A stretch of 45,069 nucleotides of DNA from a virus: IMG/VR virus record IMGVR_UViG_3300029607_000014. One strand, given 5' to 3'. Shown here piece after piece: positions 10,912-34,631 of this stretch. The position numbers and the translations under genes were made by a program. Each line of letters begins with the position of its first letter. Position 1 is the stretch's first letter. The notes below the pieces were generated by a model. The model was not told where the DNA came from, did no database searches, and saw only the letters and a list, made by a program, of their open reading frames with translations.

Positions 10912-12198
10912 ATGTTAAGCCCAGAATATTTACGGCAAATTACAGAGGGCAGTGAACAGATAGCAGAAGAACTGCATCAGTACATCATCTCTGAGATTGT
11001 ATCTCGAATGATGACAAGAATTGGCAGAGGTGAGGACTATATTCTGACCAATGCCGATGCGTGGAGAATCAGAACACTACAGGAATCTGGTGAGCTGCTA
11101 GAGGACATTCTGGCAGAATTATCCAGATACACCAAACGTGAACAGCAGGAACTCCTTGAGGCGTTTGAGGATGCTGGAATTACTGCGATGAACTACGATG
11201 ACAAGGTATACAAGGAGGCAGGACTTAGCCCTGCACCACTCGAACAGTCACCAGCTATGATAAGACTCATGGAGCGGAATATGCTTGCGACTATGGGCGA
11301 GTGGAAGAACTTTACACGAACAACTGCAAGTGCCGCTCAGAGGCTCTATATTGAGCAATGCGACCTTGCCTATAATCATGTAATGACTGGGGCAGTTGGA
11401 TATACGCAAGCCATCAAAGAGGCAGTTAATAACGTTGTGAGTAATGGCGTTACTGTCATATATCCATCTGGCAGAAAAGACACGATCGAAACAGCAGTAG
11501 CACGTTCTGTCAGAACCGGAGTCGCACAGGCGTGTGCTGATATTCAGTTAGCAAGAATGAAAGAAATGGGATACGGTTTAGTATTGACATCGGCGCACAT
11601 AGGAAGTCGCCCAAGTCATGAAGTATGGCAAGGGCAGGTATTTTCCATAGACTGGAAAAAATTAAAAGAAATCAAGCCGGAGTTCTTTCAGGAACGAGAT
11701 ACACCAGAATATCGTAGAATGCTGGAGCGAAAAGCAAGCCACTATCCAGATTTTATTGAAAACTGTCATTATGGCGAAGCTGATGGAATATGTGGAGTAA
11801 ATTGCAGACATCATTTTTCAGTTTGGGCGGAAGGAATGCCGAATCCCTACGCAGAACTATCGGCACAGGATAAAGCCAACAAAGGCGAACAATACGAAAA
11901 AGAGCAAAAACAACGTACTTACGAACGCAGAATCCGCAAAACAAAAAGAGAGGTTCTTGGACTGCAAGCAGGAGTTGACAATGCACCGAACGAAAAGGCG
12001 AAATTCGCATTACAACAAGACCTCGACCGGAAGTCTTATCTTTTGCAGAAACAAAATGCTGCATACAAGGCTTACTGCAAGCAGAACGACCTGAGGGAAC
12101 TGCAAGACCGGCTCATGATAGCGAAGTGGAACCGCCAGAATGCCGCAAAAGCCAGAGGAGCGGCGAAGAGATATAAAACAGCAAAGGGGATTGACTGA
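10912..12198 (+). CDS. head-morphogenesis / minor capsid protein (Mu F / SPP1 gp7-like)
   Basis: Position after portal; GVNCRHHF motif typical of the MuF-like C-terminal core; basic coiled-coil tail. Confidence 0.75.
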   Translation: MLSPEYLRQITEGSEQIAEELHQYIISEIVSRMMTRIGRGEDYILTNADAWRIRTLQESGELLEDILAELSRYTKREQQELLEAFEDAGITAMNYDDKVYKEAGLSPAPLEQSPAMIRLMERNMLATMGEWKNFTRTTASAAQRLYIEQCDLAYNHVMTGAVGYTQAIKEAVNNVVSNGVTVIYPSGRKDTIETAVARSVRTGVAQACADIQLARMKEMGYGLVLTSAHIGSRPSHEVWQGQVFSIDWKKLKEIKPEFFQERDTPEYRRMLERKASHYPDFIENCHYGEADGICGVNCRHHFSVWAEGMPNPYAELSAQDKANKGEQYEKEQKQRTYERRIRKTKREVLGLQAGVDNAPNEKAKFALQQDLDRKSYLLQKQNAAYKAYCKQNDLRELQDRLMIAKWNRQNAAKARGAAKRYKTAKGID

Positions 12199-12578
12199 TG
12201 GATAGATGGGAATATTACAATCCGAATCCTGCCGGTAATCGAGTCGGAGATTGCGTTGTCCGAGCAATATGCAAAGCAACTGGTCTTGACTGGGAAACGG
12301 TATTTGCCGGATTAATGATACAGGCGTGCGCTCTGTCAGATATGCCAAGCGCAAATTATGTCTGGGGAGCGTACCTCTATAAACGTGGGTACAGACGCAA
12401 ACTGATTGAACAATCAGAACGATATATCTATACAGTCAATGATTTTTGCACAGACCATCCGACAGGCACGTACATTCTCTGCATAGATGGTCATGTGGTG
12501 ACAGTACGGGATGGAAAATATTACGATACATGGGATTCCGGAAATGAAGTCCCGGTATATTACTGGGAAAAGGAGTAG
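12198..12578 (+). CDS. hypothetical protein with Cys/His/Asp triad-like arrangement (possible papain-fold enzyme)
   Basis: NRVGDCVVRAI ... CIDGHVVTV..GKYYDTWDSG; TGATG coupling to MuF gene. Confidence 0.5.
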   Translation: MDRWEYYNPNPAGNRVGDCVVRAICKATGLDWETVFAGLMIQACALSDMPSANYVWGAYLYKRGYRRKLIEQSERYIYTVNDFCTDHPTGTYILCIDGHVVTVRDGKYYDTWDSGNEVPVYYWEKE

Positions 12579-12582
12579 CTAA

Positions 12583-12888
12583 ATGAGCATATCAGAATTT
12601 GTACAGATTTTCCTTTCTATCTGCGGAGGGGTGTCTATTGTCGGAGGGGCGGCAGCCGTAATCTTTAAATGGATTACCCCGGCATTCCGACTTAATAAGC
12701 GAGTAGAGACGCTGGAAGAACATGATAGACGAGATTATGAAAGTCTTCGGAGAATCGCAGAACGAGATTCATTAATTCTGGAAGTGTTGTCGACCATGCT
12801 GGATAGTCAGATTAGTGGGAATAATGTAGAAGAATTAAAAAAAACAAAACAGAAGCTTACAAATTATCTTGCGCAGAATCAACGTTAG
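12583..12888 (+). CDS. N-terminally membrane-anchored coiled-coil protein (101 aa)
   Basis: FVQIFLSICGGVSIVGGAAAVIF TM segment; AAAGGAG RBS. Confidence 0.55.
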   Translation: MSISEFVQIFLSICGGVSIVGGAAAVIFKWITPAFRLNKRVETLEEHDRRDYESLRRIAERDSLILEVLSTMLDSQISGNNVEELKKTKQKLTNYLAQNQR

Positions 12889-12908
12889 CATTAATAAGGG
12901 GTATGCTC

Positions 12909-13109
12909 ATGAAATTATATGTGTTCACAAAGAAAGATATAGACAGGTTCTTGATAGAGTGTAATTTCACACCGGACGAAGAAAGATTGTTCCGGTTGAG
13001 GTGTAAGGAATATACACTCGAATACTGCGCTGAGCAGATGAACGTGAGTATATCCACGGCGAAACGATTAAGCCGGAGGGTGAACAATAAAATAATTAAA
13101 GTGTGCTGA
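12909..13109 (+). CDS. sigma-70 region-4-like HTH protein (66 aa)
   Basis: TPDEERLFRLRCKEYTLEYCAEQMNVSISTAKRLSRRVNNKI resembles sigma r4/LuxR-type HTH. Confidence 0.55.
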   Translation: MKLYVFTKKDIDRFLIECNFTPDEERLFRLRCKEYTLEYCAEQMNVSISTAKRLSRRVNNKIIKVC

Positions 13110-13130
13110 TACTTTTTGGATACTAATTAG

Positions 13131-13163
13131 AGCCAGAAACGACCTGTTTCCGGTTCTTTTTTT
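13131..13163 (+). terminator. rho-independent terminator
   Basis: ccagaaac-gacct-gtttccgg stem (one mismatch) followed by a T-rich tract (ttcttttttt). Confidence 0.65.
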
Positions 13164-13197
13164 ATGTAAAAATATAATCAGAAAGGCGGTGTATAAG

Positions 13198-13668
13198 ATG
13201 GCATTATATAACAATCCTTATCAATATAGTTTTGGCGTTCCTGGGCAGATGAACCAGTTTCAGCAACAGCCTGTCCAGATGCCGGCTCAATCAGTACAGC
13301 AACCACAGCAAAATAATAGCGGTATCCTGTGGGTATCCGGCGAAGTCGGCGCAAAATCCTATCTGGTAGCACCTGGGACAAGTGTTTTGCTAATGGATTC
13401 AGAATCAGAGAAATTTTATATAAAATCCACAGATGTATCCGGTATGCCACAGCCACTGCGGACATTTGAATACCACGAGGTGGGCTCTCAGATGCCGCCT
13501 AAACAGCCTGTTCAGAACATGGACAGTAAATATGTTACTCGACAGGAATACGATGATTTGAAAGGCAAATACGAAGCTATTATAAACCGATTAAATTCAT
13601 TTTCTGAACCTGTTAGGGCTAATACCGTACAGGAATCAGCAGTCAAGGGAGGAAACGCAGATGAGTAA
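13198..13668 (+). CDS. Gln/Pro-rich hypothetical protein (156 aa)
   Basis: GAAAGG RBS; QFQQQPVQMPAQSVQQPQQ low-complexity N-terminus, then GILWVSGEVGAKSYLVAPGTSVLLMD core. Confidence 0.6.
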   Translation: MALYNNPYQYSFGVPGQMNQFQQQPVQMPAQSVQQPQQNNSGILWVSGEVGAKSYLVAPGTSVLLMDSESEKFYIKSTDVSGMPQPLRTFEYHEVGSQMPPKQPVQNMDSKYVTRQEYDDLKGKYEAIINRLNSFSEPVRANTVQESAVKGGNADE

Positions 13669-13882
13669 TCCATTATTTAACGCCCTCGGTGGCGGGATGC
13701 CGCAGGGAAATGGACCAATGCAGATGATACAGCAGTTCATGCAGTTCAAACAGAATTTTAAGGGAGATCCGAAAGCAGAAGTTGAGAAAATGTTACAGTC
13801 TGGGAAGATTTCTCAGCAGCAACTTAATCAGGTCCAACAGATGGCAGGGCAGTTTCAACACATGTTGAAAGGAATGAAATAG
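13661..13882 (+). CDS. Gln/Met-rich small hypothetical protein (73 aa)
   Basis: GGGAGGA RBS; overlaps upstream stop. Confidence 0.55.
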   Translation: MSNPLFNALGGGMPQGNGPMQMIQQFMQFKQNFKGDPKAEVEKMLQSGKISQQQLNQVQQMAGQFQHMLKGMK

Positions 13883-13933
13883 TACATTACAATCTGGCCA
13901 GATTGATGTAAATACAATAAAGGAGATTATATT

Positions 13934-14713
13934 ATGGATGGAAATTATAGCTTAGCAGATATTGCCGCTGCTACTGGAAATGGTAGAAATAATGACGGCA
14001 TGTTTGGTGGAGATGGTAGCTGGTGGATTATTGTTTTATTCATTTTTGCTTTCTTCGGATGGGGAAACAACGGCTGGGGAAATAATGGAAACGGCGGCGG
14101 ATATGCAGCCACGGCAGCTACTCAGGCGGATATTCAGAGAGGATTCGACAATTCTGCAGTGATCAGCAAGCTTGACGGAATCAATAGCGGCCTGTGCGAT
14201 GGCTTCTATGCCATGAATAATGGTATGCTTACCGGATTCAACGGAATCAACACAAACATCATGCAGACTGGTTTCGGCATTCAGCAGGCTATTAACGCTG
14301 ACACTGTAGCAAATATGCAGAATACCAATGCACTCCAGGCACAGCTTGCGAACTGTTGCTGCGAAACCAGAGAAGCAATTCAGGGCGTAAACTACAATAT
14401 GGCGCAGAACACCTGTGCATTACAGAACACCATGAACAGCAACACAAGAGATATCATTGACAGCCAGAACGCTGGGACAAGAGCCATTCTCGACTATCTT
14501 TGCAATGAAAAGATTTCTAACCTGCAGGCTGAAAATAACGACCTCAGACGTGCTGCTTCTCAGGACCGTCAGAGCGCACTTCTCACAACTGCAATGGCTT
14601 CACAGACACAGCAGCTCATTAATGCGATTAATCCGGCACCGATTCCGGCATATCAGGTTCCTAATCCGAACACATTTTACGGATGCGGATGCAACACTGG
14701 ATGTAATTGCTGA
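13934..14713 (+). CDS. single-pass membrane protein with GWGNNG repeats, N/Q-rich body and Cys-rich C-terminus
   Basis: AAAGGAG RBS; WWIIVLFIFAFFGWGNNGWGNNGNGGG; ANCCCE; ...YGCGCNTGCNC end. Confidence 0.65.
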   Translation: MDGNYSLADIAAATGNGRNNDGMFGGDGSWWIIVLFIFAFFGWGNNGWGNNGNGGGYAATAATQADIQRGFDNSAVISKLDGINSGLCDGFYAMNNGMLTGFNGINTNIMQTGFGIQQAINADTVANMQNTNALQAQLANCCCETREAIQGVNYNMAQNTCALQNTMNSNTRDIIDSQNAGTRAILDYLCNEKISNLQAENNDLRRAASQDRQSALLTTAMASQTQQLINAINPAPIPAYQVPNPNTFYGCGCNTGCNC

Positions 14714-14776
14714 TAACTTCATATCGAGAGTATCTTTCGATTGATTCGGATGTCGGCTTATGCCGTATTACACAGA

Positions 14777-14801
14777 GGGCAGGCTGAGACCTGTCCTTTT
14801 G
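14777..14801 (+). terminator. rho-independent terminator
   Basis: gggcagg-ctgaga-cctgtcc (one G-U) followed by tttt. Confidence 0.6.
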
Positions 14802-14822
14802 TGATATGAAAGGAGTATTTTT

Positions 14823-15245
14823 ATGGCAGAATTTACAAATGTAGCTGCTCAGACTGTAGCAGCAAATGGAAACGTAGTATTTTCAAGCACAGCAGTTAAA
14901 GGTTCTAACTGTATTCAGCACAGAGAGGGAAGTGGAATTATTACGCTGAGAGGACTGACTAATCAGTGCAAAGCGAGATTCTTCGTGGATTTTTCTGGCA
15001 ATATCGCAATTCCAACAGGCGGTACTGTCGGAGCTATTTCTCTGGCTATTGCAATCTCTGGTGAGCCGGTTCTTTCTTCACAGATGATTTCCACACCGGC
15101 AGCAGTAGACCAGTATAATAATGTGTCCTCTGGCATTTATATTGATGTACCTCGTGGATGTTGCGTTAACATCGCAGTAGAGAATACAAGCAATCAGGCT
15201 GTTTCTGTTGCAAATGCAAACATTGTTGTGACCAGAGAAGCGTAG
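14823..15245 (+). CDS. 140-aa beta-rich hypothetical protein (possible C1q/BclA-C-terminal-like jelly roll)
   Basis: GAAAGGAG RBS; alternating hydrophobic beta pattern ...FFVDFSGNIAIPTGGTVGAISLAIAISGEPV...CCVNIAVENTS...ANIVVTREA. Confidence 0.6.
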   Translation: MAEFTNVAAQTVAANGNVVFSSTAVKGSNCIQHREGSGIITLRGLTNQCKARFFVDFSGNIAIPTGGTVGAISLAIAISGEPVLSSQMISTPAAVDQYNNVSSGIYIDVPRGCCVNIAVENTSNQAVSVANANIVVTREA

Positions 15246-15256
15246 GAGGTGTGATT

Positions 15257-15811
15257 ATGAGAGATATTAAAGACTTATGCGCAAGAATCGAAGATGAACT
15301 TTCCAAAATCGCTGATAATGGACTGACCACCGGAAATCTGGAAATGACATACAAACTGATTGATATGTACAAAGATATCAAGAACACTCAGTACTGGGAT
15401 AAGAAAGTAGAGTACTACAACACTGTCCTTGATGAAATGCGTGGCGGATACAATGACGATTACAGCGAGCGGGGAAGAAAGCGGGACAGCATGGGGAGAT
15501 ACAGCGCAAATGATGGCAGAATGATGCCGGATTACGACAGGGGCAATTCTTATGCCAGACGTGGTGAACATTATGTCAGAGGGCATTACAGTCGCTCTGA
15601 TGGGCGAGATGCTTACGATGACTACATGACGCAGAAGCAAAGCTATCGTTCCGGCAAGTCTGAAGACTGCAAGAGGAAGATGCTTGCCGCTCTGGAAGAA
15701 CATCTGGACGAACTTACAACAGAAATGAGCGATATGTCCAAGGACGCAGAGTGCCGGGAAGAACGTGATCTTGTCAAGAGATACGTGGAAAAACTTCGCG
15801 ATATGCTCTAA
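15257..15811 (+). CDS. hypothetical protein with helical ends and an R/D/Y/G/S-rich disordered core (184 aa)
   Basis: AGGAGG 7 nt before ATG 15257; RGRKRDSMGRYSANDGRMMPDYDRGNSYARRGEHYVRGHYSRSDGRDAYDDY. Confidence 0.6.
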   Translation: MRDIKDLCARIEDELSKIADNGLTTGNLEMTYKLIDMYKDIKNTQYWDKKVEYYNTVLDEMRGGYNDDYSERGRKRDSMGRYSANDGRMMPDYDRGNSYARRGEHYVRGHYSRSDGRDAYDDYMTQKQSYRSGKSEDCKRKMLAALEEHLDELTTEMSDMSKDAECREERDLVKRYVEKLRDML

Positions 15812-15817
15812 AAACGC

Positions 15818-15858
15818 AAAAAGTGGTAGAGAGGTAGTTAAAAGAAATCTGTTATAAT
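15818..15858 (+). promoter_or_regulatory. late promoter P-late2: AAAAGTGGTAGAGAGGTA-N16-TATAAT (TGt extended -10)
   Basis: 16/18 identity with motif at 7472..7489, same spacing to the -10. Confidence 0.6.
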
Positions 15859-15943
15859 GTAATTGTGCAGCAGGAAGCACAAGTAAAACGGTTGTTTTGA
15901 CATTTTCGTTTTAATCCTCCTTTCTTTAATTTTTGTAGCTGGT

Positions 15944-15992
15944 GCGCACGCTTTAACGGAAAGTTAAGCAGGTTCGAGTCCTGCCGTGCGTA
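15944..15992 (+). ncRNA. truncated tRNA-like module (acceptor stem + T arm + one hairpin; no D arm)
   Basis: gcgcacg/cgtgcgt 7-bp acceptor (one G-U), gcagg-TTCGAGT-cctgc T arm, ttaac-ggaaa-gttaa hairpin. Confidence 0.45.
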
Positions 15993-16141
15993 TTTGTCAT
16001 CTGGCACGCAAGATGGCTCACCTCCTTGATTAAGGTTTTTGTTATTCATACTTTTCTTTTAAAAAAGAAATAAATATCCGAAACAACTCGTGGTAGGCAT
16101 AACACGTTAAATACCTTGCTAACCCGGGAATCCGGGTTATG

Positions 16142-16214
16142 TGGAATGTAGCTCAGTAGGAAGAGCGGAGATGCTGAATTCTTGACGTCAGAGGTTCAAG
16201 TCCTCTCATTCCAT
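16142..16214 (+). tRNA. tRNA-like gene, 73 nt, canonical acceptor/D/T arms but poorly paired anticodon stem (possible pseudo-tRNA; anticodon unassignable)
   Basis: tggaatg/cattcca acceptor; gctc-agtaggaa-gagc D arm; agagg-TTCAAGT-cctct T arm; anticodon stem gagat/tcttg has only 2 pairs. Confidence 0.5.
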
Positions 16215-16290
16215 TACCCTGCCAGTGGTCTAACTGGCTTAATCCATTTACCTGCGGCGGCAGGTCAATAAACACGACCAGGAGGATGTT

Positions 16291-16923
16291 ATGCAGAAAC
16301 TTATTGACACATTAAAATCATTTGGAATCGAAATCCCGGAAGATAAACAGGCAGATGTGAAGAAAGCACTCTCTGAGCATTACAAAAATGCTAAGGAAGT
16401 AGCAAAAACCCTGTCGAAAGTCGAGGGTGAACGTGATGACTGGAAAGAACGTGCTGAAGCAGCAGAAGAGACCCTGAAAGGTTTTGACGGTATCGACCCG
16501 GCAAATGTTAAAACCGAGTTAGAGACTTGGAAACAGAAAGCGGCAGATGCAGAGAAAGAATTCAACGCAAAAATCTATGACCGTGATTTCTCAGATGCAC
16601 TTAAAACAGCACTCGATGATGTTAAATTTTCCAGTGAGGCTGCAAAGAAATCAGTCATGGCAGACATCAAAGAAGCTGGATTAAAACTGAAAGACGGTAA
16701 AATCCTTGGACTGAACGATCTGATCGAGCAGATGAAGCAGTCTGACGCATCCGCTTTTGTGGATGAATCTCAGCAGCAGGCTCAGCAGAATCAGGCGAGA
16801 TTTACAACACATGTTGGACAGCAGCAGACACCGGGAAACATGACAAAGAAAGATATCGAAGCAATCAAAGACCCGTCCGAGAGACAGGCTGCAATTGCTC
16901 AGAATATCCAGTTATTCCAGTGA
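16291..16923 (+). CDS. scaffolding protein (phage GP20-like)
   Basis: 210 aa, highly charged helical (K/E/A/D), Q-rich tail, directly upstream of major capsid gene. Confidence 0.7.
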   Translation: MQKLIDTLKSFGIEIPEDKQADVKKALSEHYKNAKEVAKTLSKVEGERDDWKERAEAAEETLKGFDGIDPANVKTELETWKQKAADAEKEFNAKIYDRDFSDALKTALDDVKFSSEAAKKSVMADIKEAGLKLKDGKILGLNDLIEQMKQSDASAFVDESQQQAQQNQARFTTHVGQQQTPGNMTKKDIEAIKDPSERQAAIAQNIQLFQ

Positions 16924-17003: not shown

Positions 17004-18173
17004 ATGGCAGCAAAAGCTAATCTTATTATGACTAATGATATTCAGGTAAAGGCACGTGAGATTGACTTTGTTACCAGATTCGAAAGAAACTGGCAGCACT
17101 TACGTGATATTCTGGGCATCATGAGACCTATCAAAAAACAGCCGGGTGCTGTACTGAAATCTAAGTACGCAGAGGGTACTTTGCAGAGCGGAAATGTTGG
17201 TGAGGGCGAGGAAATCCCTTACAGCAAATTCACTGTAAAAGAAAAGAACTATGCGGAAATGACTATCGAGAAGTACGCAAAGGCTGTATCTATCGAAGCA
17301 ATCAAGGATCACGGTTACGAGAACGCTGTTCAGATGACTGATGATGAATTTCTTTTCCAACTTCAGACTGACGTTACCGGCAGATTCTATGATTATCTGA
17401 AAACCGGTACGCTTACTTCCACAGAAACAACATTCCAGATGGCTCTGGCAATGGCTAAAGGTCGTGTTGAAAACAAATTCAAACAGATGCACAGAAATGT
17501 GACTGGTGTTGTTGGATTTGTGAACATTCTGGACGTATATGAATATCTCGGAGCGGCCGAGATTACTATTCAGAACCAGTTCGGATTCCAGTATATGAAG
17601 GACTTTATGGGATTCAATACAATCTTCCTGTTATCCGACAGCGAAATCCCGAGAGGACAGGTTATCGCTACTCCTGTTGAGAACATCGTACTTTACTATG
17701 TTGACCCGAACGAATCTGACTTCGCAAGAGCAGGTCTTGTATACACTGTGTCTGGCGAGACAAATCTGATCGGATTCCATACTCAGGGCAACTACCACAC
17801 AGCAGTATCCGAAGCGTTTGCGGTCATGGGTCTTACTCTTTTCGCAGAGTACATTGACGCAATCGCAGTAATTACCATTGACGAGACACCTACACTCGGT
17901 ACTCTGACAGTAAATTCTGTAGCAGGTTCAGCGACCGGAGATACAAAAATCACTGTAAATCCGGCTAAGGAAAATGCCGGCAATGTGTATAAATACAAAG
18001 TTGCAGCAGAAGCAGTAACTGTCGGATATGGACAGAATCTCAGAAACTGGACTACTTGGGACGGAAAAGCTGATATTAAGGCGGCAACCGGACAGAAGAT
18101 CACAGTGGTTGAGTGCGACGGAACATACAAAGCACTGAACGCCGGAAGTGCAAGCGTAACAGCGAAATCATAA
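17004..18173 (+). CDS. major capsid protein with C-terminal Ig-like extension
   Basis: 389 aa after scaffold; C-terminal TLGTLTVNSVAGSATGDTKITVNP...KITVVECDG resembles a Big_2-type domain. Confidence 0.75.
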   Translation: MAAKANLIMTNDIQVKAREIDFVTRFERNWQHLRDILGIMRPIKKQPGAVLKSKYAEGTLQSGNVGEGEEIPYSKFTVKEKNYAEMTIEKYAKAVSIEAIKDHGYENAVQMTDDEFLFQLQTDVTGRFYDYLKTGTLTSTETTFQMALAMAKGRVENKFKQMHRNVTGVVGFVNILDVYEYLGAAEITIQNQFGFQYMKDFMGFNTIFLLSDSEIPRGQVIATPVENIVLYYVDPNESDFARAGLVYTVSGETNLIGFHTQGNYHTAVSEAFAVMGLTLFAEYIDAIAVITIDETPTLGTLTVNSVAGSATGDTKITVNPAKENAGNVYKYKVAAEAVTVGYGQNLRNWTTWDGKADIKAATGQKITVVECDGTYKALNAGSASVTAKS

Positions 18174-33029: not shown

Positions 33030-33300
33030 GTTGGACACACGTTGGTCACAAATAAGAAAAAATATTTCCTAATTAAATATCCTCTAAAGTACTGTATTTA
33101 AAGGACTTTTTGACATTTGCATAGTTCTAATTTAATGCCCTAATTAAATACAATTAGAATAATGAAAATGAAATGAGTGAATTCCTTGCAAAATCGCTGA
33201 GAATGTTGATTTTACAAGGGTTTCACGCGTTTTTATGTTCTGAATTGTGATGAATAAAATTGATAAAATAAGATTCCGTTAGTCACAGTTAGTCACAAAT
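33030..33300. repeat. attP-like region with arm-type repeats
   Basis: Tandem GTTGGACACA-c-GTTGGTCACA (33030..33050) and GTTAGTCACA x2 (33278..33297); CCTAATTAAATA x2 (33068, 33139); inverted ttctaatt/aattagaa. Confidence 0.5.
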
Positions 33301-34460
33301 GGGACTTTTATTTTCTCAATCTCTGTTCGGAGTTCTTCCAATGTCCTGTGTCCATATACCGCGTTTGTAACATCTCCACCAAAAGAGTGACCCAGCATTC
33401 GCTTCCGGTCGTTCTCCCGGACGCCGTATTTTTCGCACAGCGCAGAAAAGGTGTGTCGACAATCGTGCGGCGTGTGCTTCGGATCACCGACTATTCCTAA
33501 ACGTTCCAGTGTAGGATAGAACAACGCTTTTCTGTGATGCTGCTGAGTATACACGCATAATTTTCCATCTTGTGTCAGCACTTTCTGTTCGACAAAATGG
33601 TATATAGCGGGATGTATCGGGACAATTCTGTTTTTACCGGCTTTTGTTTTGATGCCGCCTTGAAAGTATCCTTCTTCTAAGTTGGTTGTAAGTTTTAACA
33701 CTTCACCGATTCTCCAGCCGGAGTAACACATAATAAGAATGAGCTGTACTTCTTGATTGTCGGTATTATTCCACAGCACTTGCATTTCCTGATCAGAAAA
33801 GGGCGTTCCATGTTCGGTGTCATTATCAGCATTGACATGGACATATAACGCCTTGTTTTCCGTTACAATTTCTGAGTAAACAGCATATTTATACATCTGC
33901 TTGAACAGCGTAAGAATCGCCATGAGACTCTGACGCTTTAACGGGCAGTCATCAATTACCTTTTGCAGATCAGGCGCTTTTAAATCCTCAAAGATACGAT
34001 TGTACAGAGTCGTACAGTTCGAGTAAGCGGTCTGGTAAGCTATTTTTGAACTATAAGAAAGTTTTGAACCCTCTGGAAATTTCCATGCGTAAAACTTCTT
34101 ATATACCTCTGAAAACGTCAATTTCTTGATTTCCGGGTGTTTATCCTCGACACCCTTGATTGTGTTGTAGTCAGCAATCAAACGAGTAACAAGGGTATCT
34201 ACGTCCGTTGTAGGTGATATCTCAAGGTCTCGTTCCATCCCTGGCTGATATGTTCCTGCCTTGTATGCGGTCAGTACAGTAAATCCTTTAATCCAGTCGT
34301 CTACATAGCAGATTGCAGGCGGTCGGACGGGCTTTCCGGTCTTTTCATCCAGCACTGCCGGAGGATGAACCGCAAACGGATTTCTGCGGTTGCCGCCCAG
34401 GTGCCGTATTGTTCCGAAACTGTTAGGGAGCTTCGGGTATTTCTTTCTTTTCTTCGCCAT
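33279..34460 (-). CDS. int: tyrosine integrase
   Basis: C-terminal catalytic pattern HDCRHTF...MLGH...VYGHRT; AGAGGGA RBS before internal ATG 34460. Confidence 0.9.
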   Translation of the reverse strand: MAKKRKKYPKLPNSFGTIRHLGGNRRNPFAVHPPAVLDEKTGKPVRPPAICYVDDWIKGFTVLTAYKAGTYQPGMERDLEISPTTDVDTLVTRLIADYNTIKGVEDKHPEIKKLTFSEVYKKFYAWKFPEGSKLSYSSKIAYQTAYSNCTTLYNRIFEDLKAPDLQKVIDDCPLKRQSLMAILTLFKQMYKYAVYSEIVTENKALYVHVNADNDTEHGTPFSDQEMQVLWNNTDNQEVQLILIMCYSGWRIGEVLKLTTNLEEGYFQGGIKTKAGKNRIVPIHPAIYHFVEQKVLTQDGKLCVYTQQHHRKALFYPTLERLGIVGDPKHTPHDCRHTFSALCEKYGVRENDRKRMLGHSFGGDVTNAVYGHRTLEELRTEIEKIKVPFVTNCD

Positions 34461-34631
34461 TTTTATTCCCTCTTTCTGTAGCTGTATTTTAGGTATAAAA
34501 ATAACAGCCGAACAAACTTTCTGACTTGCCCGACTGCTCCGAAGATGATACAATATGTTTTGCCAGAATATTACATTTCTTCGGAGATGTATAAACGCCA
34601 CCTCGGTACGCTAATGCCGGGGTGGTTTTTA

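What the first reader, a model, noticed from the sequence alone, without database searches (positions are those of the whole stretch)
15859..16290. A ~430-nt structured non-coding leader with two tRNA-like modules that keep acceptor/T arms but have defective anticodon or D regions, plus two anti-Shine-Dalgarno mimics
There is no credible ORF between P-late2 and the scaffold gene. The region contains the following.

(a) 16142..16214 is a 73-nt element with exact tRNA geometry. It has a perfect 7-bp acceptor stem, a canonical D arm (gctc-agtaggaa-gagc) and a T arm (agagg-TTCAAGT-cctct). Its anticodon stem (gagat/tcttg) forms only 2 of 5 pairs, and position 33 is not U.

(b) 15944..15992 is a 49-nt mini-module. 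It has a 7-bp acceptor stem, a perfect T arm (gcagg-TTCGAGT-cctgc) and a single hairpin (ttaac-ggaaa-gttaa). It has no D arm.

(c) There are extra perfect hairpins at aacccgg-gaat-ccgggtt (16121..16138), gccagt-ggtcta-actggc and acctgc-ggcg-gcaggt.

(d) Two strings match the 16S 3' end: CCTCCTTTCT (15916..15925) and CACCTCCTT (16019..16027). These could pair with AGGAGG sites such as the scaffold RBS at 16280..16285.

Keeping only the RNase P/Z recognition half (acceptor plus T arm) suggests mRNA punctuation or processing signals, or decoys for tRNA-targeting host defences. Ordinary decoding tRNAs seem less likely.
Basis: partly seen in the sequence, partly recalled or inferred. Interest (0 to 1): 0.7.

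Follow-up and report, generated by a model that had tools for sequence, protein, structure and literature searches.

The report
Non-decoding tRNA-like modules in phage leader
The untranslated leader in front of a gut phage's capsid genes carries two conserved tRNA-shaped RNA modules that cannot read codons; they sit where sister phages carry real tRNAs, ROOL RNA or RAGATH-21 RNA, and most likely act as cut-here signals for tRNA-processing enzymes.

Summary
Window 15812-16290 is a non-coding leader ahead of the scaffold and major-capsid genes of a temperate Lachnospiraceae siphophage.

- **16142-16214** is tRNA-derived (Rfam tRNA 43.7 bits). Its anticodon arm is 16 nt (4-bp stem, 8-nt loop, no U33). 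ARAGORN's "Gln-CUG" is a forced call.
- **15944-15992** is a 49-nt acceptor plus T-arm mini-module. It falls below the Rfam threshold but is 99% paired across 34 variants, with compensatory changes.

Comparison with more than 250 related loci changes the picture. This leader is the smallest allele of a cassette island that in sister phages holds 1-4 tRNAs, ROOL and RAGATH-21.

- All 80 unbiased relatives carry a tRNA-shaped cassette against an invariant "UUACC + two hairpins + AGGAGGAU" junction. In 36 of them the anticodon loop is non-canonical.
- The window-type body is about 80 times less diverse than neighbouring synonymous sites, and variation concentrates in the anticodon arm.
- The mini-module and RAGATH-21 are mutually exclusive at one position.
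- Two CCUCC boxes are conserved and are predicted to sequester the scaffold Shine-Dalgarno site.

Best model (inferred, not shown): the modules are RNase P/Z processing handles that free a hairpin-capped, translatable capsid mRNA. I rate it a new variant of a known kind.

The parts
15851..15859 (+). Putative start of the leader transcript, about 15866.
   Evidence: Seen directly in the sequence. Both leader architectures keep TGNTAnAAT at the aligned position. The full sigma-70 scan found no -35/-10 pair here, so this is inferred, not shown.
15863..15899 (+). Two small 5'-proximal hairpins: UUGUGC...GCACAA (15863-15882) and AAAACG...UGUUUU (15884-15899). The first has a purine-rich loop, AGCAGGAAG.
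   Evidence: Fold at -9.1 kcal/mol, z = -1.8. AGGAAG-type purines are invariant columns between the W and R leader types.
15914..15925 (+). Anti-Shine-Dalgarno box 1, AUCCUCCUUUCU. Its first 8 nt are the exact complement of the scaffold Shine-Dalgarno region AGGAGGAU.
   Evidence: Present in 80/83 leaders of both architectures. Predicted to pair with the Shine-Dalgarno site at P = 0.27 in the window and 0.5-0.98 in 10 relatives. Mutating both boxes raises the unpaired probability of the site from 0.105 to 0.449.
15944..15992 (+). 49-nt mini tRNA-like module. Acceptor stem 15944-15950 / 15985-15991. Hairpin 15953-15957 / 15963-15967 with loop GGAAA. T arm 15968-15972 / 15980-15984 with loop UUCGAGU. 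Discriminator A at 15992. No D arm, no anticodon arm, no encoded CCA.
   Evidence: Minimum-free-energy fold. Rfam tRNA 17.7 bits, below threshold. 34 distinct variants are 99% paired, with compensatory G-C to A-U changes in the acceptor and T stems. Found in at least 119 IMG/VR contigs. Mutually exclusive with RAGATH-21.
15996..16017 (+). Hairpin GUCAUCU-GGCACGCA-AGAUGGC, immediately before box 2.
   Evidence: Fold. 99.6% paired across 34 variants, with G-U / A-U / G-C alternation at two pairs. An analogous hairpin precedes box 2 in R-type leaders.
16019..16028 (+). Anti-Shine-Dalgarno box 2, CACCUCCUUG. Six nucleotides are complementary to AGGAGG.
   Evidence: ACCTCCTTG is present in 76/83 leaders. 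The centroid fold pairs it with 16280-16285, and the ensemble gives P = 0.47 in the window.
16089..16139 (+). Constant upstream flank of the tRNA slot: hairpin CGUG...CACG (16089-16106) and hairpin UAACCCGG-GAAU-CCGGGUUA (16120-16139).
   Evidence: Fold. Segment 16078-16140 is present in 82/82 relatives. Nucleotide diversity 0.045 against 0.234 at synonymous sites.
16142..16214 (+). 73-nt tRNA-derived cassette with intact acceptor (UGGAAUG/CAUUCCA), D arm (GCUC-AGUAGGAA-GAGC) and T arm (AGAGG-UUCAAGU-CCUCU). The anticodon arm (16167-16184) is non-decoding: 16 nt, 4-bp stem, 8-nt loop, G at position 33. CCA-less.
   Evidence: Rfam 43.7 bits with the arm unaligned. Forced ARAGORN call. The identical arm occurs in 33 IMG/VR contigs in at least 4 flank contexts. 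Body diversity 0.003 against 0.081 for the arm and 0.234 for synonymous sites. The cassette also occurs at a non-terminal position.
16215..16270 (+). Constant junction UACC(C/U) followed by hairpin 1 (GCCAGU-GGUCUA-ACUGGC, 16221-16238) and hairpin 2 (ACCUGC-GGCG-GCAGGU, 16250-16265). Proposed 5' cap of the processed mRNA.
   Evidence: Fold z = -2.8. Present in 82/82 relatives. Diversity 0.012. Hairpin 1 shows two independent compensatory variants (GGCAG/CUGCC, GCCCG/CGGGC) and one wobble variant.
16280..16293 (+). Shine-Dalgarno sequence AGGAGGAU (16280-16287) and the scaffold start codon ATG (16291).
   Evidence: Sequence. The ORF 16291-16923 matches PHROG head scaffolding protein, followed by the major head protein at 17004-18173. 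The Shine-Dalgarno region is invariant in 267 locus copies.

Best explanation
What it is (well supported). The interval is the 5' leader of the scaffold and major-capsid operon of a temperate Lachnospiraceae siphophage. It is the smallest allele of a cassette-type structured-RNA island. In sister phages the same leader holds 1-4 tRNAs, ROOL RNA and RAGATH-21. Here it holds two tRNA-derived modules that cannot decode:
- a 73-nt tRNA body with a shortened anticodon arm that lacks U33;
- a 49-nt acceptor plus T-arm mini-module that sits where RAGATH-21 sits in the other leader type.

How it most likely works (inferred).
1. The modules are kept because they present the acceptor / T-arm / elbow shape that RNase P (5' side) and RNase Z (3' side of CCA-less precursors) recognise.
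2. The primary transcript starts near 15866. In it, two conserved CCUCC boxes pair with the scaffold Shine-Dalgarno sequence AGGAGGAU.
3. Cutting at the tRNA-shaped modules severs the boxes from that site.
4. This leaves an mRNA that begins at the invariant UACC junction, is capped by two conserved hairpins, and has an accessible Shine-Dalgarno sequence.

In siblings the same cuts would release ROOL, RAGATH-21 and real tRNAs. Decoding ability is optional for the slot, so anticodon arms drift, shrink or are swapped while the body is conserved.
For: Shown by tool results
- tRNA-derived but non-decoding: Rfam 43.7 bits with the arm unaligned; forced ARAGORN geometry; no canonical register.
- Not a one-off or a sequencing error: the identical arm occurs in 33 contigs and at least 4 flank contexts.
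- Constraint on the body, not the arm. Diversity is 0.003 for the body, 0.081 for the arm and 0.234 for scaffold third codon positions. Ten of the 12 segregating sites lie in the 18-nt arm.
- Slot occupancy is universal, decoding is not. All 80 unbiased relatives have a tRNA-shaped cassette. Of these, 36 lack a canonical anticodon loop, 28 are canonical, and 16 are Gln-UUG with an inserted variable arm.
- A divergent sub-family and a Lachnospiraceae prophage (scaffold 56% identical) keep the arrangement "non-decoding tRNA-like + UUACC + two hairpins + AGGAGGAU". One has a roughly 50-nt mini element in the slot itself. ARAGORN calls no tRNA gene at any of these slot elements; its one call in the four sub-family leaders is an undetermined tRNA-??? 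far upstream.
- Mini-module: 99% paired over 34 variants with compensatory pairs. It is mutually exclusive with RAGATH-21, 37 versus 38 loci with none carrying both, within a shared framework.
- In relatives ROOL is abutted on both sides by tRNA(-like) genes: L048 2218-2291 | 2284-2843 | 2839-2923.
- Every slot cassette examined lacks an encoded CCA and is followed by U-rich UUACC/CUACC.
- Anti-Shine-Dalgarno boxes are conserved. The unpaired probability of the Shine-Dalgarno site is 0.015-0.12 in 11 full leaders and 0.33-0.57 after a cut at the tRNA 3' end. Controls: box mutants give 0.449; shuffled upstream sequence gives 0.29 +/- 0.12, with 1.7% at or below the native value.

From established knowledge
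- RNase P cleaves acceptor / T-stem / T-loop model hairpins, phage RNAs and mRNAs (review PMC11143913).
- ROOL and GOLLD lie near tRNA islands in phages (PMC5737381, PMC12286853).
Against: - No RNA-end, expression or cleavage data exist. Processing is entirely inferred.
- Low diversity of the cassette could reflect recent horizontal spread by recombination rather than purifying selection. Most contigs come from one large gut dataset.
- The long-range pairing between the boxes and the Shine-Dalgarno site (260-365 nt apart) rests on thermodynamic prediction only. The minimum-free-energy structure does not contain it; only the centroid and ensemble do. No covariation is possible because both partners are invariant.
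- The divergent prophage L171 lacks CCUCC boxes.
- Some non-canonical cassettes (loop YRYAUAG) keep perfect 5-bp stems with compensatory changes. That implies constraint on the anticodon arm which a pure processing role does not explain.
- The promoter is inferred from a motif. The sigma-70 scan did not call it.
Confidence: 0.45

Rival explanations
1. Decaying tRNA pseudogenes. The leader is a recombination hot spot for accessory tRNA genes, and the two modules are non-functional remnants (an indel-damaged anticodon arm and an internally deleted tRNA) that merely hitch-hike.
For: - Sister phages have ordinary tRNAs in the same slot.
- Cassettes are swapped between otherwise similar genomes.
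- One variant shows a homopolymer length polymorphism in the loop, CAAAAAA versus CAAAAAAA.
- L038 carries a 75-nt four-arm version from which the 49-nt module could derive by deletion.
Against: - No slot is empty in 80/80 unbiased relatives, nor in the divergent sub-family.
- Body diversity is 0.003 against 0.234 at synonymous sites, and damage is confined to the anticodon arm.
- Stems of the mini-module and of other non-decoding cassettes show compensatory changes.
- Unrelated mini elements arose independently.
- The identical element occurs in 33 contigs.
Confidence: 0.2
2. Anti-defence function. The tRNA-shaped RNAs are decoys or nuclease-resistant variants aimed at host tRNA-targeting defences (anticodon nucleases, acceptor-end nucleases), and the anticodon arm diversifies under an arms race.
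For: - Variation is concentrated in the anticodon arm on a conserved body.
- A purine recurs at position 33, with conserved loops YRYAUAG maintained by compensatory stem changes.
- Phage tRNAs are known to counter tRNA-targeting defences through anticodon-loop changes (PMC10264068, PMC11555353).
Against: - Known cases are functional decoders with 7-nt loops. Here the loops are 5, 6 or 8 nt, or absent altogether, so they cannot mimic an anticodon loop.
- PMC10264068 does not mention decoys or U33 changes.
- The idea does not explain the fixed position against the UUACC/hairpin/Shine-Dalgarno junction or the RAGATH-21 exchange.
- No cognate nuclease has been identified.
Confidence: 0.12
3. Unusual but functional decoders, for example an 8-nt anticodon loop tRNA used for frameshifting or quadruplet reading, or a Gln-CUG tRNA as ARAGORN calls it.
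For: - ARAGORN calls tRNA-Gln(CUG) and does not flag it as a pseudogene.
- The Rfam score is above the gathering threshold.
- The D/T elbow nucleotides (G18, G19, U54, U55, C56) are intact.
Against: - The call needs non-standard geometry, with 3 G-U pairs and a mismatch in the stem and G at position 33.
- The arm folds at only -1.8 kcal/mol.
- Sister variants on the same body have unrelated loops (UGAUGAAU, CAAAAAA, CAAAAAAA), so no anticodon is conserved.
- The 49-nt module has no anticodon arm at all.
Confidence: 0.05
4. A purely cis-regulatory leader, in which the tRNA shape is incidental. Candidate roles are translational control by the anti-Shine-Dalgarno boxes, antitermination or mRNA stabilisation by hairpins, or a platform that binds a phage or host protein such as EF-Tu, the CCA-adding enzyme or modification enzymes.
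For: - The CCUCC boxes are conserved and are predicted to sequester the Shine-Dalgarno site.
- The flanking hairpins are invariant.
- The whole leader folds better than shuffled versions (z = -1.88).
Against: - It does not explain why the variable element is always tRNA-shaped (80/80).
- It does not explain why real tRNAs and ROOL are accommodated at the same place.
- There is no intrinsic terminator in the window leader.
Confidence: 0.13

Closest known systems
Phage/prophage tRNA islands carrying ROOL or GOLLD RNAs (Weinberg 2017, PMC5737381; Kretsch 2025, PMC12286853)
   Same: The homologous leader in sister phages contains ROOL (375-384 bits) flanked directly by tRNA(-like) genes, plus 1-4 tRNAs. 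It is a phage context and the elements are probably co-transcribed.
   Different: The window itself has no ROOL. Its tRNA-shaped members are non-decoding. The island has a fixed position as the leader of the scaffold/capsid operon, with a constant junction and anti-Shine-Dalgarno boxes. I found no description of these features in the papers read.
RAGATH-21 RNA (Rfam RF03097)
   Same: It occupies exactly the position of the 49-nt mini-module in the alternative leader type, between box 1 and the hairpin plus box 2. The two are mutually exclusive. They share the 5' strand GGUGCG...CUUAA..GAAA and a 3' hairpin with a 7-nt loop that abuts the closing stem.
   Different: The window shows no RAGATH-21 match even at E up to 10. 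RAGATH-21 has a 10-bp closing stem and three hairpins and lacks the GGUUCGAnUCC T-loop sequence. Its function is unknown, and I found no paper on it.
tRNA punctuation and tRNA-like processing signals: mitochondrial tRNA punctuation, plant mitochondrial t-elements, MALAT1 mascRNA, the E. coli tRNA-tufB operon (from my own knowledge)
   Same: tRNA or tRNA-like structures embedded in a longer transcript are cut by RNase P and RNase Z to define the ends of neighbouring RNAs. Non-decoding tRNA-like elements (t-elements, mascRNA) can do this.
   Different: Those systems are organellar or eukaryotic, or use genuine tRNAs. Here it would be a bacteriophage late-operon leader, possibly coupled to release of the Shine-Dalgarno site. 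Cleavage is not demonstrated.
RNase P minihelix model substrates (McClain, Guerrier-Takada and Altman 1987, as reviewed in PMC11143913)
   Same: The 49-nt module is essentially an acceptor stem stacked on a T stem-loop. That is the minimal domain shown to be cleaved correctly by bacterial RNase P.
   Different: The natural element carries an extra 5-bp hairpin and no 3' CCA. It has not been tested.
Phage tRNAs with anticodon-loop substitutions that evade anticodon nucleases (van den Berg 2023, PMC10264068)
   Same: Phage-encoded, with variation focused on the anticodon loop.
   Different: Those remain canonical 7-nt-loop decoders. Here the loop lengths are 5, 6 or 8 nt or the arm is absent, and position 33 is not U.
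Bacterial and phage tRNA-like non-coding RNAs such as YrlA Y RNAs, the tmRNA tRNA-like domain, and T4 tRNA-cluster species 1/2 RNAs (from my own knowledge)
   Same: Stable RNAs that mimic the acceptor/T/D part of tRNA without decoding.
   Different: There is no Rfam match to Y RNA or tmRNA families, and ARAGORN finds no tmRNA. The context is different: an mRNA leader.

Membership tests
Canonical tRNA (RF00005), element 16142-16214 | Covariance-model score at or above the Rfam gathering threshold | tested here: met
   43.7 bits against a threshold of 29. This is well below the canonical tRNA-Asn in the same slot of a relative, 73.8 bits.
Canonical tRNA (RF00005), element 16142-16214 | 7-bp acceptor stem, D arm with G18 and G19, and T arm with a UUCRA loop | tested here: met
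   UGGAAUG/CAUUCCA, GCUC-AGUAGGAA-GAGC and AGAGG-UUCAAGU-CCUCU.
Canonical tRNA (RF00005), element 16142-16214 | 5-bp anticodon stem and 7-nt loop with U33 and a purine at position 37 | tested here: not met
   The arm is 16 nt. The best fold is 4 bp with an 8-nt loop. ARAGORN's register has 3 G-U pairs, a mismatch and G33. No canonical register exists.
Canonical tRNA (RF00005), element 16142-16214 | 3' CCA addition, aminoacylation and decoding | not testable with these tools
   No CCA is encoded; the sequence after the acceptor is U-UACC. Charged-tRNA sequencing would be needed.
Canonical tRNA (RF00005), element 15944-15992 | Score at or above threshold, with D and anticodon arms present | tested here: not met
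   17.7 bits, E = 0.84. The D arm and anticodon arm are replaced by one 5-bp hairpin.
tRNA-like processing signal (punctuation / t-element type) | A conserved acceptor plus T-arm fold embedded in a longer transcript, at the boundary of functional RNAs | tested here: met
   Covariation in the mini-module. Body conservation. Universal slot occupancy against a constant junction. ROOL is abutted by tRNA(-like) genes in relatives.
tRNA-like processing signal (punctuation / t-element type) | Actual endonucleolytic cleavage by RNase P and RNase Z at the module ends | not testable with these tools
   Needs end mapping or in vitro cleavage.
RAGATH-21 (RF03097) | Covariance-model match | tested here: not met
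   No match in window 15700-16400 at E up to 10. 15 of the 20 relatives tested match at 75-94 bits.
ROOL RNA (RF03087) | Covariance-model match in the leader | tested here: not met
   Absent from the window. Present in relatives L027, L048 and L076.
Anti-Shine-Dalgarno sequestration (translational control by a leader) | Conserved complementarity between a leader segment and the Shine-Dalgarno site, with predicted pairing | tested here: met
   Box 1 gives 8 nt of exact complementarity. The boxes occur in 76-80 of 83 leaders. The unpaired probability of the site is 0.015-0.12.
Anti-Shine-Dalgarno sequestration (translational control by a leader) | Covariation of the two partners, or an experimental effect on translation | tested here: inconclusive
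   Both partners are invariant, so no covariation is possible. The minimum-free-energy structure lacks the pairing; only the centroid and ensemble have it.
tRNA-fragment attP site of a temperate phage | Adjacent to the integrase, and carrying only the 3' part of a host tRNA | tested here: not met
   The integrase is at 33279-34601 on the minus strand, about 17 kb away. The elements are complete stem-closed modules inside the head-gene cluster.
tmRNA / tRNA-like domain | ARAGORN or Rfam tmRNA detection | tested here: not met
   ARAGORN finds no tmRNA. There is no Rfam tmRNA hit in the window.

The most novel reading that the evidence does not exclude
In this very abundant family of gut Lachnospiraceae phages, a tRNA-shaped module that need not decode is an obligatory "cut-here" element of the capsid-operon leader. 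RNase P/Z cleavage at it both releases cargo RNAs (ROOL, RAGATH-21, real tRNAs) and switches on scaffold/capsid translation by separating 16S-tail-like anti-Shine-Dalgarno boxes from the Shine-Dalgarno site. RAGATH-21 would be a further tRNA-top-half mimic serving the same role. This would explain why ornate phage RNAs cluster with tRNAs.
Probability: 0.2. Interest if true: 0.8.

Novelty: new variant of a known kind. Interest (0 to 1): 0.6.

Why it matters
ROOL and GOLLD RNAs form giant RNA cages, and both their function and their puzzling association with tRNA islands are unexplained. This leader family offers a natural allelic series at one fixed position ahead of the capsid genes:
- a minimal allele, as in the window;
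- alleles with added real tRNAs;
- alleles with RAGATH-21;
- alleles with ROOL.

The series has hundreds of sequenced variants and comes from a cultivable host lineage (Dorea / Lachnospiraceae).

If the tRNA-shaped modules are processing handles, that would give a concrete and testable reason for the tRNA association. It would also be a bacterial-virus example of tRNA punctuation coupled to translational activation. And it would warn that many "phage tRNA genes" called by ARAGORN (here Gln, His, Phe, Tyr, Met) are not decoders, which affects codon-usage and anti-defence interpretations of phage tRNAs.

Tried and rejected
- **Minus-strand coding.** The reverse complements of the CCUCC boxes look like ribosome-binding sites, and there is a 65-aa ORF (15852-16049) and a 21-aa ORF. 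Indels of 1, 2 and 5 nt in relatives break the frame, and the two leader types share no peptide. Rejected.
- **attP or tRNA integration site.** The integrase lies about 17 kb away. Rejected.
- **Antisense target of the odd 8-nt loop.** The complement ATTCAGCA occurs 6 times against 3.1 expected, and never in the leader. Sister variants have unrelated loops. Rejected.
- **Other Rfam families in the window leader.** Only chance-level hits: SAM_alpha 14.6 bits, sR43 11.7 bits, and Plastid-ycf2 on the opposite strand of the tRNA-like element.
- **Sigma-70 promoter and terminator scan.** Nothing in the leader. The promoter therefore rests on the conserved extended -10 motif only.
- **Literature.** No paper mentions RAGATH-21. 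The supplement of the paper describing the 224 motifs is not held. The phage-tRNA anticodon-loop paper does not mention U33, pseudogenes or decoys.
- **The ~50-nt mini element of L278.** The Rfam tRNA model does not recognise it, and its minimum-free-energy fold does not show the T arm. Its tRNA-likeness rests on the closing stem plus the GGUUCGAUUCC sequence only.
- **Whole-leader minimum-free-energy structure.** It does not contain the box/Shine-Dalgarno pairing; only the centroid and the ensemble do.
- **tRNAscan-SE** was not available.
- **Sampling bias.** Loci L087-L170 were fetched with a pattern that selects the window-type body, so they were excluded from the census. Only L007-L086 plus the window were used.
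Full report
**1. Observation check**

*Element 16142-16214.* Rfam's tRNA model matches it at 43.7 bits (gathering score 29) but leaves the 17-nt anticodon arm unaligned. ARAGORN reports tRNA-Gln(CUG) at 16141-16215. Its drawing shows what that costs: an 8-bp acceptor, no nucleotide 26, an anticodon stem of three G-U pairs, one A-U pair and one mismatch, and G at position 33. The arm is 16 nt rather than 17. On its own it folds as GAGA/UCUU (4 bp) with the 8-nt loop UGCUGAAU, at only -1.8 kcal/mol. A scripted search found no register with a 5-bp stem, a 7-nt loop, U33 and a purine at 37.

*Element 15944-15992.* The minimum-free-energy fold is exactly the proposed one: acceptor, 5-bp hairpin and T arm (-19.2 kcal/mol, z = -2.46). 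The Rfam tRNA score is sub-threshold (17.7 bits, E = 0.84).

*Other features.* The hairpins and both CCUCC strings are at the stated coordinates. No + strand ORF of 30 aa or more lies in the leader.

**2. Context**

PHROG searches place the leader between genes of unknown function (12198-15811) and the head scaffolding protein (16291) and major head protein (17004). Large terminase, portal and minor head protein lie upstream. Tape measure, endolysin, an integrase (33279-34601, minus strand) and a primase/helicase lie downstream. The window is therefore an essentially complete temperate siphophage of about 45 kb.

The capsid protein has relatives in a Dorea sp. MAG contig and in a 323-kb Lachnospiraceae contig. 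A Lachnospiraceae host fits the strong AGGAGG Shine-Dalgarno sites. More than 513 IMG/VR stretches encode a relative of the scaffold protein, so the family is very abundant in human gut data.

**3. The 73-nt element sits in a cassette slot**

I aligned the 170 nt upstream of the scaffold ATG in 86 loci. The last 75 nt or so are almost invariant: UUACC, two hairpins and AGGAGGAU. The tRNA-sized segment just before them differs between otherwise 90-100% identical phages. ARAGORN names it Gln, Asn, Tyr, Met, Ser, His, Phe, Ile or Leu.

The intergenic leader ranges from 462 to 1588 nt.

I took a census of the unbiased set: 80 terminal slots chosen only by scaffold-protein similarity.
- Every genome has a tRNA-shaped cassette.
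- 28 have a canonical anticodon arm: Asn-GUU 10, Tyr-GUA 9, Met/Ile2-CAU 4, Ser-GCU 3, Ile-UAU 2.
- 16 are a Gln-UUG tRNA with a 17-nt insertion in the variable region.
- 36 are non-canonical:
  - window type, 8;
  - the same body with a poly-A loop, 1;
  - loop Y-R-Y-A-U-A-G with a purine at position 33, 17;
  - a 67-nt form with loop UGYAAAU, 7;
  - a 68-nt form with a 5-nt loop whose stem shows a compensatory change (CAGAG/CUCUG to CAGGG/CCCUG), 2;
  - a truncated arm, 1.

**4. The window-type element is stable and constrained in its body**

An IMG/VR scan for its D-arm and variable-loop signature, allowing any anticodon arm, returned 84 matching stretches (83 matches parsed). The exact window arm occurs in 33 of them, in at least four flank contexts. 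In six contigs the cassette is not terminal; it is followed by a 60-nt spacer and a tRNA-Tyr.

Nucleotide diversity among 25 distinct contigs with this body:

| Region | Diversity |
|---|---|
| Acceptor, D and T parts | 0.003 (2 of 55 sites segregate) |
| Anticodon arm | 0.081 (10 of 18 sites segregate) |
| Downstream junction | 0.012 |
| Scaffold third codon positions | 0.234 |

This is the opposite of what a decoder should show. It is also not what a freely decaying pseudogene should show, although recent horizontal spread of the cassette could contribute to the low diversity.

**5. Divergent relatives keep the arrangement without any decoder**

The Lachnospiraceae prophage L171 (scaffold 56% identical) and four IMG/VR contigs with a compensatory version of hairpin 1 share a short leader. 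It consists of an intrinsic terminator, UUUUGACAU, a CCCUCCUU box (in the IMG/VR contigs only), one or two tRNA-shaped elements, UUACCCC, two hairpins, AGGAGGAU and the scaffold ATG.

ARAGORN calls no tRNA gene at any of these slot elements; its one call in the four IMG/VR leaders is an undetermined tRNA-??? that lies far upstream of the slot.
- One slot element reaches 44.2 bits with the arm unaligned.
- L171's element folds with a 4-bp stem and 8-nt loop.
- L278 and L279 have an element of only about 50 nt (closing stem plus GGUUCGAUUCC) in the slot itself. It is unrelated in sequence to the window's mini-module.

Independent loss of the anticodon arm, with the acceptor/T half retained, argues that the shape is what is selected.

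**6. The 49-nt mini-module**

It is present in 37-39 of 82 relatives and in at least 119 IMG/VR contigs.

Over 34 distinct variants the proposed structure, plus the following hairpin, is paired in 99.0% of cells, against 31-47% when partners are slid. Twelve of 24 pairs vary, and two show changes on both sides: G-C to A-U in the acceptor, and A-U to G-C in the T stem. The caveat is that the sequences are closely related and most changes are transitions through G-U.

The other leaders carry RAGATH-21 (RF03097, 75-94 bits) at exactly this place. By signature, 37 loci have the mini-module, 38 have RAGATH-21 and none has both.

An alignment of the two leader types shows a shared framework:
- the extended -10 motif TGNTAnAAT;
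- box 1;
- the closing-stem 5' strand GGUGCG;
- CUUAA..GAAA.

The mini-module T arm aligns with RAGATH-21's 3' hairpin (CGGA-UGCAAUU-UCCG). Both abut the closing stem's 3' strand.

L038 carries a 75-nt four-arm version of the mini-module.

**7. ROOL**

Three of the 20 relatives tested carry ROOL (375-384 bits) in the leader. It is abutted by a tRNA-like gene upstream and tRNA-Ser downstream: L048 2218-2291 | 2284-2843 | 2839-2923. ROOL and GOLLD are known to lie near tRNA islands in phages, and their function is unknown (PMC5737381, PMC12286853).

**8. Anti-Shine-Dalgarno boxes**

- Exactly two CCTCC occur in 79 of 83 leaders. Box 1 is in 80 and box 2 in 76, in both architectures.
- Box 1 (AUCCUCCU) is the exact 8-nt complement of the Shine-Dalgarno region AGGAGGAU.
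- Partition-function folding of 11 leaders (462-739 nt) gives an unpaired probability for that site of 0.015-0.12. It pairs mostly with box 1; in the window it is split between box 1 (0.27) and box 2 (0.47). The value rises to 0.33-0.57 when the RNA starts at the tRNA 3' end.
- Mutating both boxes in silico gives 0.449. Single mutants compensate for each other. Shuffling the upstream part gives 0.29 +/- 0.12, with 1.7% of shuffles at or below the native 0.105.
- The centroid of the whole leader contains the box 2 pairing, but the minimum-free-energy structure does not.
- CCTCCTT is over-represented in the window (13 against 5.6 expected), but most of those copies are ribosome-binding sites read on the other strand.
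- Each box matches about 9-10 nt of the Firmicute 16S 3' tail (from my own knowledge). The UUUCU extension of box 1 is not explained by pairing with the Shine-Dalgarno site.

**9. Constant flanks**

Segments 16078-16140 and 16214-16290 are in 82/82 relatives. Hairpin 1 has two independent compensatory variants (GGCAG/CUGCC and GCCCG/CGGGC) and one G-U variant. Hairpin 2 and the Shine-Dalgarno region are virtually invariant in 267 locus copies. Every slot cassette examined lacks an encoded CCA and is followed by UUACC or CUACC.

**10. Mechanism**

*Shown.* The modules are tRNA-derived, non-decoding by every structural criterion I could test, conserved, and positioned at a fixed junction.

*Inferred.* They serve as RNase P/RNase Z handles.
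- RNase P cleaves acceptor / T-stem / T-loop model hairpins, phage RNAs and mRNAs (PMC11143913).
- RNase Z acts on CCA-less precursors with U-rich trailers in Bacillus (from my own knowledge).
- Cleavage would release the cargo RNAs of sibling alleles. It would sever the anti-Shine-Dalgarno boxes from their target and leave an mRNA that starts at UACC, protected by two hairpins.

Rivals are scored in the report sections: neutral pseudogenes, anti-defence decoys, odd decoders, and a purely cis-regulatory leader. The main facts the processing model does not explain are the conserved Y-R-Y-A-U-A-G loops with compensatory stems, and the UUUCU tail of box 1.

**11. Comparison and novelty**

The locus belongs to the known category of phage tRNA islands with ornate RNAs, and the proposed mechanism is the known tRNA-punctuation principle.

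The following appear new; I found no description of them in Rfam or in the papers searched:
- a slot that must be filled by a tRNA shape but not by a decoder;
- a conserved 49-nt mini tRNA-like module that is interchangeable with RAGATH-21;
- the conserved anti-Shine-Dalgarno boxes;
- the fixed hairpin-capped junction ahead of the capsid operon.

I therefore rate it a new variant of a known kind, with moderate-to-high interest. The function remains to be demonstrated.

Noticed in passing
L017:2839-2922, also L020, L021, L023, L025 and others (16 of 80 relatives): A tRNA-Gln(UUG) with an E. coli-like Gln D arm and a canonical anticodon loop, but with a 17-nt insertion in the variable region (GAGAGGAACACUCAUUC). 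The anticodon stem shows a compensatory change (CCGGG/CCCGG to CCGGA/UCCGG). A class-II-like Gln tRNA is unusual.
   Followed up: partly
L048:2218-2923 (also L027, L076): ROOL RNA (about 560 nt, 375-384 bits) lies in the capsid-operon leader. It is directly abutted by, and even overlaps by a few nucleotides, a purine-33 tRNA-like gene upstream and tRNA-Ser(GCU) downstream.
   Followed up: partly
e.g. L022:2851-2924, plus 44 or more IMG/VR contigs (L087-L170 set): A family of CAU/UAU "tRNAs" with anticodon loop Y-R-Y-A-U-A-G (purine instead of U at position 33, G at 38). They also have a 6-nt variable loop GACGUC and a conserved U6-U67 mismatch, and their stems are maintained by compensatory changes. 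ARAGORN calls them tRNA-Met.
   Followed up: partly
L022:2622-2710 and 14 other relatives: RAGATH-21 is flanked by the two CCUCC boxes. Its 3' hairpin loop UGCAAUU fits a T-loop-like U-G-N-R-A pattern and is stacked on the closing stem. RAGATH-21 may itself mimic the top half of a tRNA.
   Followed up: partly
L126:4240-4300, plus spacers in L014, L028 and L036: A recurrent spacer motif between tRNAs: GGUUA..CUUAUCCUG, a short hairpin, then GAAAAG, preceding the next tRNA. It may be a conserved processing or spacer module.
   Followed up: no
L028:1340-1470, plus equivalent stretches in L036 and L070: A conserved stretch of about 130-200 nt (UUUGAUUUGGUUAAAAUUAUGCUGUUUGUUUGCAGGCGGUCUAUGAUU...) follows the 68-nt tRNA-like element with the 5-nt loop. 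It has no Rfam match at gathering threshold and may be another structured RNA.
   Followed up: no
window 15869-15877, and aligned positions in R-type leaders (alignment A2): A purine-rich AGGAAG segment near the putative 5' end is conserved in both leader types. In the minimum-free-energy fold it pairs with box 1 (CCUCCUUUCU). It may act as an anti-anti-Shine-Dalgarno element, giving a three-way switch.
   Followed up: no
window 15898-15904, plus all leader types including L277-L280: UUUUGACAU is conserved about 10-30 nt upstream of box 1 in all three leader types. In the divergent sub-family it directly follows an intrinsic terminator, so it may be the -35 element of the true leader promoter there.
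   Followed up: no
window 10492, 10802, 35799, 37355 (+ strand): Four more + strand CCTCCTT copies lie outside the leader. Overall the motif occurs 13 times against 5.6 expected. I did not check whether they are ribosome-binding sites of minus-strand genes or further anti-Shine-Dalgarno elements.
   Followed up: no
L038:2600-2700: A 75-nt four-arm version of the mini-module with a duplicated hairpin region and a CUUUUAG-like loop. It may be the ancestral full-length form, or a duplication derivative.
   Followed up: partly
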